From Escherichia coli (GTDB taxonomy: Bacteria > Pseudomonadota > Gammaproteobacteria > Enterobacterales > Enterobacteriaceae): DNA of 3,964 nucleotides. Of this stretch, positions 2,407 to 2,865 are shown piece after piece; position 1 is the first letter of the stretch, and the number at the start of each line of letters is the position of its first letter. The DNA lies in the NCBI RefSeq assembly GCF_003334385.1, contig NZ_QOWN01000090.1; one strand, written 5' to 3'. Below the pieces are notes generated by a model. It saw only the letters and a list, made by a program, of their open reading frames with translations. It was not told the origin of the DNA and did not search any database. The translations under genes were made by a program, and so were the position numbers.

Positions 2407-2865
2407 AATTTCCTACAAAAATCTGAGCGTCTATCTAATAGTTCATCCTCTCGCGTTGTCCCCGTAGCCCTCCTTGAGTTTGCCCTGAAGCGAGGGAAGC
2501 TCCCCCCTTCAAGTCGAAAGATTGGGAACCTTCCAGATGTTCTGGCCTTGGTTCTATTCCGTTTGTGGGAATATTACAGGTATCCGACCTTGACCAGAGA
2601 TCACTCAGTGTGTAACCATAACTGTAACCAAATGGATTCATTATATCTTTAAGAAACAAATGGTTATTGAGTGATTGTCTTCGATGCTTCGATTCCCTTC
2701 GCCCGCTCCAATTTATCTTCGCCGTAATACTTCCCCATTTTGTTGTAAATAAAAAGCGTTTACGCAATGCAATCCTTTTGTAACAACCCAGGTAAAACAC
2801 CTTATTTTCAAGTTGTTAAATAAGTGGTTATCTACGCTTTTAACAAACGATTGATGGAATATTTT

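What the first reader, a model, noticed from the sequence alone, without database searches (positions are those of the whole stretch)
2407..2865. About 460 bp with no credible ORF between the 158-aa gene and the GH15-like gene
The gap is long for a compact cassette and contains GC-rich blocks (for example 2460..2510) unlike the surrounding AT-rich sequence. The only ORF (minus strand 2435..2800) has an implausible R/S/G-rich translation. The region could hold a structured noncoding RNA, a decayed gene or the GH15 promoter. I could not identify a convincing terminator, tRNA or known RNA motif by eye.
Basis: seen in the sequence. Interest (0 to 1): 0.35.

Follow-up and report, generated by a model that had tools for sequence, protein, structure and literature searches.

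The report
Island end mimicking T7 packaging site
The "empty" 460 bp is the right-hand end of a small mobile anti-phage island inserted in a glycine tRNA gene, and it carries a copy-like version of the DNA site that T7-type viruses use to cut and package their genomes, which suggests the island can exploit those viruses.

Summary
In detail: window 2407-2865 is non-coding, and the GC-rich block is real. It is neither a decayed gene nor a conserved structured RNA. It is a composite junction.

- **2682-2710:** a 29-nt copy of the 3' end of tRNA-Gly glyU. This is the attR of a 4.77-kb islet (integrase, RAZR/PD-T7-4, cargo). The intact tRNA lies 4,768 bp upstream in strain H7.
- **2711-2865:** the ancestral glyU-ygeQ spacer. 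K-12-type genomes align only from 2682 onward.
- **about 2491-2681:** the islet's att arm. Its sequence blocks are conserved in E. coli, Citrobacter, Enterobacter and Buttiauxella.
- **2403-2490 (unexpected):** homologous to the concatemer junction of T7-group phages, meaning the last ~30 nt before the terminal repeat plus its first ~55 nt. Alignment z = 14.7 against BA14 and 8.6 against T7.

Rha-type islets instead match the Kayfunavirus junction (z = 17-22), and they carry Kayfunavirus-type phage promoters. The window type carries T7-type promoters.

My inference, which is untested, is that this block is a pac-site mimic. It would let the islet engage the packaging machinery of infecting T7-like phages, either as a satellite or as a decoy. 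I found no evidence of excised or packaged copies.

The parts
2407..2865 (.). The whole non-coding gap. It is a composite of the islet's right end, the attR core and the ancestral chromosomal spacer.
2403..2433 (+). Block resembling the last ~30 nt of the unique right end of T7-group genomes, the pacB side of the concatemer junction: TTAAAATTTCCTACAAAAATCTGAGCGTCTA. It overlaps the 158-aa stop codon.
   Evidence: Base-level alignment to T7, BA14 and FE44. AAAA.T.T.AG is invariant in 9 islet and 5 phage sequences. The motif occurs once in the window and 0 times in 200 shuffles.
2434..2490 (+). Block resembling the first ~55 nt of the phage terminal repeat, i.e. the mature left genome end: TCTAATAGTTCAT...CCCCGTAGCCCTCCTTGAGTT.
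   Evidence: 45/64 ungapped identities to BA14/FE44 starting at their annotated repeat boundary. Local alignment z = 14.7 (BA14) and 8.6 (T7). The IMG/VR T7-like phage L027 has the same TCTAATAG end.
2464..2500 (+). Local hairpin inside the repeat-like block (main stem 2468-2475 / 2488-2496). It is not followed by a U-tract.
   Evidence: -15.5 kcal/mol, z = -2.7. A hairpin with a different stem sequence sits at the same place in types B and C, but it is weak or absent in L005, L006 and Buttiauxella.
2491..2550 (+). Type-specific filler between the junction-like block and the conserved att arm. It is absent or different in other islet types and contains a small hairpin at 2533-2545.
   Evidence: Alignments.
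2551..2577 (+). Conserved arm block GTTCTATTCC-N7-GGGAATATTAC, with an inverted repeat ATTCC/GGAAT. Candidate protein-binding site.
   Evidence: Conserved in 11 of 12 arms.
2589..2606 (+). Conserved arm block CTTGACCAGAGATCACTC. CTTGACC is nearly invariant.
2610..2633 (+). Tandem 11-bp repeats GTGTAACCATA / ACTGTAACCAAAT. Candidate arm-type integrase sites. The same tandem motif lies in the attL arm (L001 3940-3965).
   Evidence: CTGTRACYWA occurs 4 times in L001 against 0.18 expected, and 3 of the 4 are in att arms. attL arms. Analogous tandem CTGTTAGAA repeats lie next to the related integrase gene of phage 3MF5.
2634..2658 (+). GGATTCAT-N5-CTTTAAGAAACA, the most conserved arm motif. It is mirrored in the attL arm by TTCTTAAAG-N13-TGAATCC.
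   Evidence: This motif retrieved islets in Enterobacter, Citrobacter and Buttiauxella.
2682..2710 (+). attR core: a 29-nt copy (27/29) of the 3' end of tRNA-Gly glyU. The exact match covers 23 nt (2688-2710). Seventeen nt (2694-2710, TCCCTTCGCCCGCTCCA) are the same in all E. coli variants examined, with one substitution in the Enterobacter and Buttiauxella arms.
   Evidence: Direct repeat with the intact glyU 4,768 bp upstream in strain H7. K-12-type genomes align from 2682 and the match starts inside glyU..
2711..2865 (+). Ancestral glyU-ygeQ intergenic spacer. Any ygeQ promoter would lie here. It carries a 78-bp deletion relative to the allele in L002, L004 and L006.
   Evidence: 98.9% identical to K-12 downstream of glyU. 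Indel: sequences; alignment to L004. No consensus promoter or terminator found.
319..341 (+). Context: T7-type phage-RNA-polymerase promoter look-alike P1, TAATACGACTCAGTATGGGGAGA (21/23 to the T7 consensus). It points toward the cargo genes and the junction-like block.
429..451 (+). Context: second T7-type promoter look-alike P2, CAATACGACTCGCTAATGGGAGA.
75..314 (+). Context: 3' part of the RAZR / PD-T7-4 (DUF4145) defence gene. In this window it is cut by an IS421 end.
   Evidence: PADLOC PD-T7-4, E = 2.9e-100 on the full-length H7 protein.
1930..2406 (+). Context: the 158-aa cargo gene, the last gene of the islet. It matches no known family.

Best explanation
**What the gap is.** The gap is the right-hand end of a 4.77-kb integrative islet inserted into the 3' end of the tRNA-Gly gene glyU, plus the chromosomal spacer that used to follow glyU. 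The islet carries a tyrosine integrase, the anti-T7 RNase RAZR/PD-T7-4, phage-type promoters, a KilA-N/Ant-like gene and a 158-aa cargo gene.

**Shown by sequence:**
- 2682-2710 is the tRNA-derived attR core.
- 2711-2865 is the ancestral glyU-ygeQ spacer.
- About 2551-2681 is an att arm made of sequence blocks that travel with the element across genera. These include tandem 11-bp repeats shared with the attL arm.
- 2403-2490 is homologous to the concatemer junction of T7-group phages: the end of the right unique region followed by the start of the terminal repeat.
- The type of this junction block co-varies with the type of phage promoters upstream of the cargo genes.

**Inferred:**
- The integrase recombines the core with attL to excise or integrate the islet, using the arm repeats as binding sites.
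- The junction-like block acts as a pac-site mimic, recognised and cut by the terminase (gp18/gp19) of an infecting T7-like phage. Phage-polymerase transcription from the upstream promoters runs into it, as transcription from phiOR runs into the real junction.
- The islet would then be replicated and packaged at the phage's expense, as a minimal satellite. This would be a natural counterpart of the Chung-Hinkle plasmids, which carry a T7 origin plus the concatemer junction and are packaged during infection.
For: **attR and empty site**
- A 29-nt direct repeat matches glyU, with 4,768-bp spacing.
- K-12-type genomes match only 2682-2865, starting inside glyU (the listed K-12 rows are 98.9% identical).
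- 349 of 5,426 genomes carry a related arm.

**The arm belongs to the element**
- The same arm plus a tRNA fragment is followed by unrelated flanks in Enterobacter, Citrobacter and Buttiauxella.
- An attP-like arm-core-arm junction occurs in Citrobacter (L016).

**Not coding, not a structured RNA:**

**Junction homology**
- 53 T7-like phage records are hit. In records that start at the genome end, the hit lies at the boundary of the right terminal repeat.
- Base-level alignment.
- Window vs BA14: score 33.5 against 11.0 +/- 1.5 for shuffles (z = 14.7). Window vs T7: z = 8.6. L005 vs BA14: z = 14.6.
- Type-C arms hit 184 phage records. They score z = 16.7-21.6 against EcoDS1 but only about 1-4 against T7/BA14.
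- Islets and phages share the same invariant positions. The same AAAAATCTGAG...ATCTCA motif sits at the junction of a Pseudomonas T7-like phage.

**Promoter co-variation**
- The window type has TAATACGACTCA-type promoters. Type C has AACTATCACTATAGGG, the same as the EcoDS1 phi promoters.

**Origin**
- The closest phage integrases (31% identity, 96% coverage, E = 7e-59) belong to temperate T7-like phages. Their integrase gene lies next to the right terminal repeat.

**Literature**
- T7 Pac consists of PacB and PacC. Plasmids carrying a T7 origin and the junction are packaged (PMC9860248, citing Chung & Hinkle 1990).
- Packaging specificity lies near the genome termini, and the phage RNA polymerase pausing at the junction recruits gp18/gp19 (PMC3276506).
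- PD-T7-4 'often overlaps an integrase gene' (PMC9519451).
Against: - Only the pacB side and the first ~55 nt of the repeat are mimicked. The rest of the arm does not match the far end of the repeat or the CJ/pacC side (z <= 2.5).
- No attP-type junction or islet arm was found in IMG/VR. The two metagenome hits are attL sites in other hosts. So there is no evidence of excision, concatemers or packaging.
- No excisionase or replication initiator was identified.
- The window's two promoters deviate from the consensus at 2 and 4 positions.
- From general knowledge: T7 degrades host DNA, so an integrated copy would have to escape quickly.
- In the window's source genome the RAZR gene is cut by IS421, and the integrase and attL are not in the window. 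This copy may be immobile.
Confidence: 0.55

Rival explanations
1. The anatomy is the same, but the junction-like block is a defensive decoy rather than a mobilisation signal. It would titrate the infecting phage's terminase or misdirect it to cut or package chromosomal or islet DNA, and so sabotage phage packaging. This would add to RAZR, which senses the phage portal. The phage-type promoters would serve only to switch on the cargo genes when a phage RNA polymerase appears.
For: - The islet carries a validated anti-T7 gene (PMC9519451; PMC13017515).
- Several promoter specificities sit in one islet (T7-, K11-, T3- and K1F-type words in L005 and L023), which looks like broad sensing.
- Only half a junction is present.
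- No packaged or excised copies were found.
Against: - The element keeps a full integration kit and a promoter-plus-AT-rich region resembling T7 origins. A pure decoy would not need these.
- The junction type is matched closely to the promoter type, as expected if both serve one helper phage.
- No known defence works this way.
Confidence: 0.2
2. The junction-like block and the phage promoters are inert relics. On this view the islet is a deletion remnant of a temperate T7-like prophage that kept its integrase end and its right genome end. The gap then has no function beyond attR.
For: The integrase family is that of temperate T7-like phages, whose integrase gene lies beside the right terminal repeat. 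Similarity to phage junctions is only about 70-80%.
Against: - The positions invariant across 9 islet arms from four genera are the ones invariant in phages.
- The compact int-RAZR-promoters-cargo-junction-arm architecture is kept while the cargo varies.
- Some islets carry promoters of several specificities, which a single decayed prophage would not.
- In islets the integrase lies on the opposite side of the junction from its position in 3MF5, so simple deletion does not give this layout.
Confidence: 0.15
3. The gap encodes a structured non-coding RNA or a 3' processing/stabilising element of the cargo transcript. The 2464-2500 hairpin would be its core.
For: A hairpin with different stem sequences recurs at the same position in three sequence types, with z = -2.0 to -2.7 in 4 of 7 sequences. 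It lies downstream of the last cargo gene and in the path of phage-promoter transcription.
Against: - No Rfam family matches.
- There is no consensus structure and there are 0 compensatory pairs over 12 arms.
- The hairpin is weak or absent in L005, L006 and Buttiauxella.
- It has no U-tract.
- Phage terminal repeats have palindromic or hairpin-prone sequence at the equivalent position (for example CCCCCATAGGGGG in T7). The hairpin is therefore more simply read as part of the junction homology.
Confidence: 0.07
4. The gap is a decayed protein-coding gene.
For: A 121-aa ORF lies on the minus strand at 2435..2800.
Against: The ORF crosses the tRNA-derived core and the island/chromosome boundary. 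No frame is conserved in 12 homologous arms. Conservation occurs in short blocks that begin right at the stop codon of unrelated cargo genes.
Confidence: 0.02

Closest known systems
attL/attR sites of tRNA-gene-integrating genomic islands and prophages (tyrosine integrase, 3'-end tRNA targets; e.g. P4-like and CP4-57-type elements)
   Same: - An intact tRNA sits next to the integrase.
- A partial copy of the tRNA 3' end sits at the far boundary.
- Islet-free strains show a precise empty site.
- The arms carry repeated motifs.
- Tandem insertion creates arm-core-arm junctions.
   Different: - The islet is very small (4.77 kb).
- The integrase is large (535 aa, with an N-terminal DUF6538 domain).
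- No excisionase is recognisable.
- The arm is fused to a phage-junction-like block.
Concatemer junction / pac site (PacB side and left-end cut site) of T7-group phages (Studiervirinae: T7, BA14, FE44, EcoDS1, K1F)
   Same: - It has the conserved TTTAA..AAAAATCTGAG-N5/6-ATCT.A.AG motif, followed by CCCC.TAG and a hairpin-prone stretch.
- The position and order match those in phages.
- A phage-type promoter upstream points into it, as phiOR does.
- The block's type matches the promoter type.
   Different: - Only ~55 nt of the 160-194-nt repeat is represented.
- Nothing detectable corresponds to the repeat's right edge, the CJ pause site or the PacC side.
- The sequence is ATCTAATAG rather than ATCTCAYAG, although one IMG/VR T7-like phage has ATCTAATAG.
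- It lies in a bacterial chromosome next to an att site.
Chung-Hinkle T7 transducing plasmids (T7 replication origin plus concatemer junction), as cited in PMC9860248
   Same: The islet has two cis elements in one small DNA: phage promoters followed by an AT-rich stretch (window 319-451, then 650-780 at 19-29% GC), and a junction-like block.
   Different: The islet is natural and integrative, and it carries a defence gene and variable cargo. Its junction is incomplete. Replication and packaging have not been tested.
Small phage satellites without capsid genes (PICMI/VEIME of marine Vibrio; also PICI, P4, PLE)
   Same: - It is a small integrase-bearing island at a conserved site.
- It carries anti-phage functions.
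- It is presumed to depend on cis signals borrowed from a helper phage. PMC9618062 describes such elements in virus particles.
   Different: - The putative helper would be a virulent T7-like podovirus.
- Expression would run through the helper's own RNA polymerase promoters.
- No replication, AlpA/Fis or terminase-small-subunit genes are present.
- No packaged copies have been seen.
Temperate T7-like phages with an integrase beside the terminal repeat (Warsawvirus vB_PsyP_3MF5 and relatives)
   Same: - The integrase family is the same (31% identity, full length).
- The junction motif is the same.
- Tandem CTGT-type repeats lie near the integrase gene.
   Different: - Those are complete 40-kb phages.
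- Their integrase lies on the other side of the junction.
- The islet has no structural or replication genes.

Membership tests
tRNA-targeting integrative element: attR site | Partial direct repeat of the tRNA 3' end at the element boundary distal to the integrase | tested here: met
   29 nt, 27/29 identical (23 exact), 4,768 bp from the intact glyU.
tRNA-targeting integrative element: attR site | Intact tRNA gene followed by a tyrosine integrase gene at the other boundary | tested here: met
   In the identical strain H7 locus: tRNA-Gly, then a 535-aa integrase with PF00589. This lies outside the window itself.
tRNA-targeting integrative element: attR site | Related genomes with a precise empty site | tested here: met
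   K-12-type genomes align only to 2682-2865, starting inside glyU.
tRNA-targeting integrative element: attR site | Arm sequence travels with the element, not with the host locus | tested here: met
   The same arm plus core is followed by unrelated flanks in four genera. An arm-core-arm junction is present in L016.
tRNA-targeting integrative element: attR site | Integrase-dependent excision and integration at the core | not testable with these tools
   Needs PCR for attP/attB or genetic assays. No attP junction was found in public contigs.
T7-group pac site / concatemer junction | Sequence of the right unique end adjoining the terminal repeat (PacB side) and the left-end cut site | tested here: met
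   Alignments. z = 14.7 (BA14) and 8.6 (T7). Type C vs EcoDS1: z = 17-22.
T7-group pac site / concatemer junction | Complete terminal repeat with its right edge, CJ pause site and PacC side | tested here: not met
   Window 2491-2712 and the attL arm show no significant similarity to the rest of the repeat or to the left unique region (z <= 2.5).
T7-group pac site / concatemer junction | Phage-RNA-polymerase promoter oriented toward the junction | tested here: met
   P1 (319-341) and P2 (429-451) lie on the + strand upstream. Best phage matches include T7 phiOR. Promoter type co-varies with junction type.
T7-group pac site / concatemer junction | Recognition and cleavage by terminase gp18/gp19, and packaging | not testable with these tools
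   Requires infection or in vitro packaging assays.
Phage satellite (PICI / P4 / PLE / PICMI sense) | Helper-dependent induction, replication and packaging into helper virions | not testable with these tools
   Only indirect sequence evidence exists. No islet sequences were found in IMG/VR.
Phage satellite (PICI / P4 / PLE / PICMI sense) | Own replication initiator, packaging-redirection or capsid-remodelling genes | tested here: not met
   The islet proteins are the integrase, RAZR, a KilA-N/Ant-like protein and an orphan 158-aa protein.
Structured non-coding RNA (Rfam family or novel conserved fold) | Covariance-model match, or a conserved structure with compensatory changes | tested here: not met
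   No Rfam hit. RNAalifold gives -2 kcal/mol and 0 compensatory pairs. Fold z = -1.8 and -0.9.
Intrinsic terminator | GC-rich stem-loop followed by a U-run | tested here: not met
   Only a 5-bp stem at 2533-2545 passes the scan, which is within the chance expectation. The 2464-2500 hairpin has no U-tract.
Pseudogene / decayed coding region | Reading-frame remnants shared with intact homologues | tested here: not met
   No conserved frame in 12 arms. Conservation starts at the stop codons of unrelated cargo genes.

The most novel reading that the evidence does not exclude
The glyU RAZR islets may be a previously undescribed family of minimal satellites of virulent T7-group phages, working almost entirely through cis-acting mimicry.

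- Arrays of phage-RNA-polymerase promoters (T7-, T3-, K11- and K1F-type) would act as infection sensors and, together with the adjacent AT-rich/CTTAAAG-repeat region, as T7-type replication origins.
- The junction-like block in the gap would be the pac site that gets islet concatemers into helper capsids.
- RAZR and the variable cargo would restrain the helper.

This would be a natural version of the Chung-Hinkle transducing plasmid, and the first satellite system for T7, the classic model phage.
Probability: 0.35. Interest if true: 0.85.

Novelty: new variant of a known kind. Interest (0 to 1): 0.68.

Why it matters
The attR assignment on its own is routine. It explains a long "empty" intergenic stretch and defines the exact borders of the mobile element that carries RAZR/PD-T7-4.

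The junction-like block matters more. A chromosomal island that pairs promoters for the RNA polymerases of T7-group phages with a type-matched copy of their genome-end cutting and packaging site suggests that strictly virulent T7-like phages have dedicated parasites, or packaging decoys, in enterobacteria. I found no description of such a thing in the held literature.

The idea can be tested directly with standard T7 genetics. If true, it would explain why RAZR travels with an integrase. It would also offer a natural cis-element kit (sensor promoter, origin, pac site) for phage-dependent DNA delivery.

Tried and rejected
- **Known RNA or tRNA:** rejected. Rfam (permissive E-value mode) and ARAGORN on the window found nothing.
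- **Conserved RNA structure:** rejected for the arm as a whole. Folds of both strands and RNAalifold on 12 arms show none.
- **Hairpin 2464-2500 as a conserved structured element:** only partly reproducible. z is about -2 to -2.7 in 4 of 7 sequences and absent in the others. It has no U-tract, so I do not call it a terminator.
- **Decayed gene:** rejected. No frame is conserved.
- **A complete terminal repeat plus CJ/PacC in the arm:** by eye, CTCAGTGTGTAACCATAACTGTAAC resembles T7 CTCTCTGTGTCCCTATCTGTTAC. The alignment is not better than shuffles, so I keep the arm-site reading.
- **"Escherichia phage ECO104 4-5-2" (8.9 kb) as a packaged islet:** rejected. It is an ordinary Kayfunavirus contig assembled across its own junction.
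- **attP-type junctions as evidence of excision:** 0 in IMG/VR. The two metagenome hits are attL sites in hosts with a different tRNA arm. The arm motif gives 0 hits in IMG/VR.
- **The 158-aa cargo protein:** no hit in Pfam, PHROGs, PADLOC or NCBIfam, and none by tblastn against phages.
- **Literature:** searches for T7-phage satellites or chromosomal T7 promoters in defence islands found nothing relevant. A 'pacB pacC' search was swamped by PacBio papers.
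Full report
**1. Where the window comes from**

Window 75-3892 is 100% identical to E. coli strain H7 (NZ_CP010171, 3827579-3831396). The outer 74-85 nt at each end are inverted copies of an IS421/IS186 end.

In H7 and related genomes the gene order is: xdhA, actS, tRNA-Gly (glyU), a 535-aa site-specific integrase, a DUF4145 gene, a ~600-bp non-coding region, a KilA-N-like gene, a small hypothetical gene, the gap, ygeQ (GH15), and then the ETT2 type III secretion genes.

**2. The observation**

- The gap runs from the stop codon of the 158-aa ORF (2404-2406) to the ygeQ ATG at 2866. RefSeq annotates nothing there.
- GC is 0.57 in 2451-2550, against 0.33-0.40 on either side.
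- The minus-strand ORF 2435..2800 exists.
- Rfam in permissive mode gives only a chance-level snoR120 hit (E = 9.7). ARAGORN finds no tRNA. The consensus scan finds no sigma-70-like promoter and one weak terminator-like hairpin.

The description is therefore correct.

**3. The right half: attR and the ancestral spacer**

Window 2682-2710 (CGATGCTTCGATTCCCTTCGCCCGCTCCA) is a 27/29 copy of the 3' end of glyU. In H7 the intact tRNA lies exactly 4,768 bp upstream.

Searching the gap against 5,426 complete E. coli genomes finds 5,259 with a match. The K-12-type genomes listed align only to 2682-2865 (98.9% identity), and there the match begins inside the annotated tRNA-Gly. So 2711-2865 is the original glyU-ygeQ spacer, and everything to the left of 2682 is inserted DNA.

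The island-specific part (2407-2681) is found in 349 genomes, always on the chromosome. The shared portion is about 2548-2681.

In other variants the bases just 5' of the core differ (GGC instead of GAT). TCCCTTCGCCCGCTCCA is the same in all E. coli variants, with a single substitution in the Enterobacter and Buttiauxella arms, as expected for an attP-derived half-site.

The spacer carries a 78-bp deletion relative to the allele in L002, L004 and L006.

**4. The element**

The glyU insertions form a family. The integrase (535-545 aa; PF00589 plus an N-terminal DUF6538) and the DUF4145 gene are constant. They are followed by a KilA-N- or Rha-type gene and one or two variable genes.

The DUF4145 protein is a full-length match to PADLOC PD-T7-4 (E = 2.9e-100). 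This protein is now called RAZR, a HEPN/zinc-finger RNase activated by the T7 portal protein (PMC13017515). The paper that discovered it noted that it 'often overlaps an integrase gene' (PMC9519451).

**5. The middle: an att arm**

From the stop codon of whatever cargo gene comes last, about 250-300 bp are alignable across islets with different cargo.

A scan of one genome per species with the most conserved arm motif found the same arm in Enterobacter, three Citrobacter genomes and Buttiauxella. Each ends in the tRNA-Gly fragment and is followed by unrelated host sequence. In Citrobacter sp. Awk 4 the core is followed directly by an attL-type arm, giving an attP-like junction from tandem islets.

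Conservation is in primary-sequence blocks:
- GTTCTATTCC-N7-GGGAATATTAC (2551-2577)
- CTTGACCAGAGATCACTC (2589-2606)
- tandem 11-bp repeats GTGTAACCATAACTGTAACCAAAT (2610-2633)
- GGATTCAT-N5-CTTTAAGAAACA (2634-2658)

The tandem motif recurs in the attL arm (CACTGTAACCAACACTGTGACTAAC). CTGTRACYWA occurs 4 times in the 15.8-kb locus against 0.18 expected. TTCTTAAAG...TGAATCC in attL mirrors GGATTCA...CTTTAAGAA in attR.

I read these as integrase or accessory-factor binding sites. That reading is an inference.

No frame is conserved. RNAalifold over 12 arms gives -2 kcal/mol with no compensatory pair. The whole-arm fold z-scores are -1.8 and -0.9. The decayed-gene and structured-RNA readings are therefore not supported.

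**6. The left third: a T7-group concatemer-junction look-alike**

A sensitive BLAST of 2400-2712 against 50,697 phage records hit 53 records, all listed ones T7-like, over window 2411-2480. Each hit is weak alone (E = 0.03-0.3). In records that start at the genome end, the hit lies at the boundary of the right terminal repeat: BA14 39598-39669 (repeat starts at 39623), FE44, 285P and BP12A.

Base by base:
- T7: TTTAAAATATACCATAAAAATCTGAGTGACTA|TCTCACAGT...CCCCCATAGGGGG
- BA14: TTTAAGAATCCTACAGAAAAATCTGAGTGGGTA|TCTCATAGTTCATAC...CCCCCTATGGCCTCCTTCAGTT
- window: TTAAAATTTCCTACAAAAATCTGAGCGTCTA TCTAATAGTTCATCC...CCCCGTAGCCCTCCTTGAGTT

The bar marks the start of the terminal repeat, which is the mature left end of the genome.

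| Comparison | Result |
|---|---|
| Window vs BA14 junction | score 33.5 vs 11.0 +/- 1.5 for shuffles; z = 14.7 |
| Window vs T7 | z = 8.6 |
| Type D (L005) vs BA14 | z = 14.6 |
| Type B (L002) vs T7 | z = 8.5 |

The motif occurs once in the window and never in 200 shuffles. An IMG/VR 38.6-kb T7-like phage has the islet's exact ATCTAATAG version at its junction. Even a Pseudomonas T7-like phage has AAAAATCTGAGAGCC|CATCTCAC at its junction. In a joint alignment of 9 islets and 5 phages the same positions are invariant.

Its hairpin (2464-2500, z = -2.7) recurs in types B and C with different stems but not in all variants. It occupies the place of the palindromic CCCCCATAGGGGG of T7.

**7. Co-variation with promoters**

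Just after RAZR, the window has two T7-type promoter look-alikes on the + strand:
- 319-341, TAATACGACTCAGTATGGGGAGA (21/23 to the T7 consensus)
- 429-451

Such motifs recur in 5 of 7 loci at up to 2 mismatches. Among the hits of window 300-930 against the phage collection, the promoter stretch (window 301-343) matches T7-like promoters including T7 phiOR.

Rha-type (type C) islets lack these. They carry AACTATCACTATAGGG instead, the promoter word of the Kayfunavirus EcoDS1 (ACTTAACTATCACTATAGGGAAG). Their junction-like block hits 184 records. The listed ones are K1F, EcoDS1 and similar ~37-41-kb T7-like phages (13 records are named Kayfunavirus), again at the terminal repeat. It scores z = 16.7-21.6 against EcoDS1 but only about 1-4 against T7/BA14.

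Some islets hold several specificities. L005 has an exact T7 consensus plus AATTAGGGCACACTATAGGGAGA, which I recognise from memory as the K11 type.

Junction type and promoter type therefore track the same phage group. That is hard to explain by chance or by inert decay.

**8. What is not there**

- The remainder of the arm (2491-2712) and the attL arm do not match the far part of the repeat or the left unique region (z <= 2.5). Only half a junction is present.
- No attP-type junction occurs in IMG/VR. The two metagenome hits are attL sites in other hosts.
- The arm motif is absent from IMG/VR.
- An 8.9-kb 'phage' record carrying the block is simply a Kayfunavirus contig.
- The 158-aa protein matches nothing.

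**9. Origin**

The nearest phage integrases (31% identity, 96% coverage, E = 7e-59) belong to temperate T7-like phages such as Warsawvirus vB_PsyP_3MF5. Their integrase gene lies between the terminase/phiOR region and the right terminal repeat, with tandem CTGTTAGAA repeats nearby.

The islet therefore shares its integrase lineage, promoter system and junction motif with T7-like phages. The layout differs, because in islets the integrase is on the other side of the junction, so it is not a simple deletion remnant.

**10. Mechanism**

Shown: the anatomy and the homologies described above.

From the literature:
- T7 Pac consists of PacB and PacC.
- Plasmids with a T7 origin and the concatemer junction are packaged during infection (PMC9860248, citing Chung & Hinkle 1990).
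- Packaging specificity lies near the genome termini, and the phage RNA polymerase pausing at the junction recruits gp18/gp19 (PMC3276506).

From my own knowledge, not tested here:
- T7 origins are phage promoters followed by AT-rich DNA. This resembles window 319-451 followed by the 19-29% GC stretch at 650-780.
- PacB lies on the unique-right side of the repeat.

Inferred: on infection by a matching phage, its RNA polymerase transcribes from P1/P2 through the cargo genes into the junction-like block. The terminase recognises and cuts there. Islet DNA, excised through the att sites and replicated from the promoter-type origin, is packaged.

A decoy role is the main rival: the block would sabotage phage packaging rather than mobilise the islet. 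An inert relic and an RNA element are less likely.

**11. Verdict**

The gap is an attR junction (high confidence) that also contains a type-matched look-alike of the T7-group concatemer junction (high confidence on homology, moderate on function).

Its interpretation is only partly supported.

The att site is an ordinary member of a known kind. The promoter-plus-junction mimicry in a RAZR-carrying islet looks like a new variant of phage parasitism or defence. I found no description of it in the held literature.

Noticed in passing
window 319-341 and 429-451 (+); L005 5109-5690; L004 2472-2523 and 3054-3078; L023 1892-1945 and 3701-3725: Arrays of promoter look-alikes for single-subunit phage RNA polymerases sit directly after the RAZR gene and point at the cargo genes. 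They are T7/BA14-type in the window. Other islets have an exact T7 consensus plus K11-type words (L005), T3-like plus K1F-type words (L023), or EcoDS1-type words (L004, L006). Several specificities can occur in one islet.
   Followed up: partly
window 400-780: CTTAAAG occurs six times (412-711), next to a very AT-rich stretch (650-780, 19-29% GC) downstream of the two promoters. Window 606-687 aligns to the BA14 region just after phiOL (score 23.5 against 12.7 +/- 1.5 for shuffles). This resembles a T7-type promoter-plus-AT-rich origin, but I did not test it further.
   Followed up: partly
window 1-74 and 3893-3964: Both window ends are inverted copies of an IS421/IS186 terminus (85 nt, 95% complementary). 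In this source genome the RAZR gene is truncated at window 75 and ygeQ's downstream part at 3892. Strain H7 has the same 3.8 kb without the IS copies. The integrase and attL are therefore not adjacent here, and this copy may be immobile.
   Followed up: partly
window 3658-3660: ygeQ ends at a TGA where intact 536-aa GH15 alleles (L002, L004) have GGA (Gly). The K-12-type 'YgeQ' is therefore the N-terminal half of a GH15 gene split by a nonsense mutation.
   Followed up: yes
window 2718/2719: The glyU-ygeQ spacer has a 78-bp deletion relative to the allele in L002, L004 and L006. This explains why many genomes match in two pieces.
   Followed up: yes
L016 (Citrobacter sp. Awk 4), reverse strand about 820-1115: An attR-type arm, the tRNA-derived core and an attL-type arm lie contiguously, so this is an attP-like junction. 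It indicates tandem islets and hence integrase activity at a resident att site.
   Followed up: partly
L029 (IMGVR_UViG_2693429758_000001), reverse strand about 7140-7400: This islet-like locus (530-aa integrase, 238-aa DUF4145-sized ORF, further ORFs) has a type-C junction block followed by short tandem repeats (GGGTCTATGACTC x3, GGCTGACACAA x3) like those inside T7-group terminal repeats. No tRNA-Gly core is present. It is possibly a relative with a longer repeat-like region and a different att site.
   Followed up: no
window 925-1629 and 1930-2406: The KilA-N-like protein matches anti-repressor (Ant) PHROGs only weakly. The 158-aa protein is an orphan, with no hit in Pfam, PHROGs, PADLOC, NCBIfam or phage tblastn. 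The cargo slot holds different genes in different islets (Rha, DUF6971, 329-aa and 375-aa hypotheticals). This looks like a variable hotspot for defence or counter-defence genes.
   Followed up: partly
L037 (phage vB_PsyP_3MF5), locus 1-700: A temperate T7-like Pseudomonas phage has its integrase between phiOR and the right terminal repeat. Tandem CTGTTAGAA repeats lie on both sides of the repeat boundary. Its junction motif AAAAATCTGAGAGCC|CATCTCAC shows this motif is conserved across Studiervirinae.
   Followed up: partly
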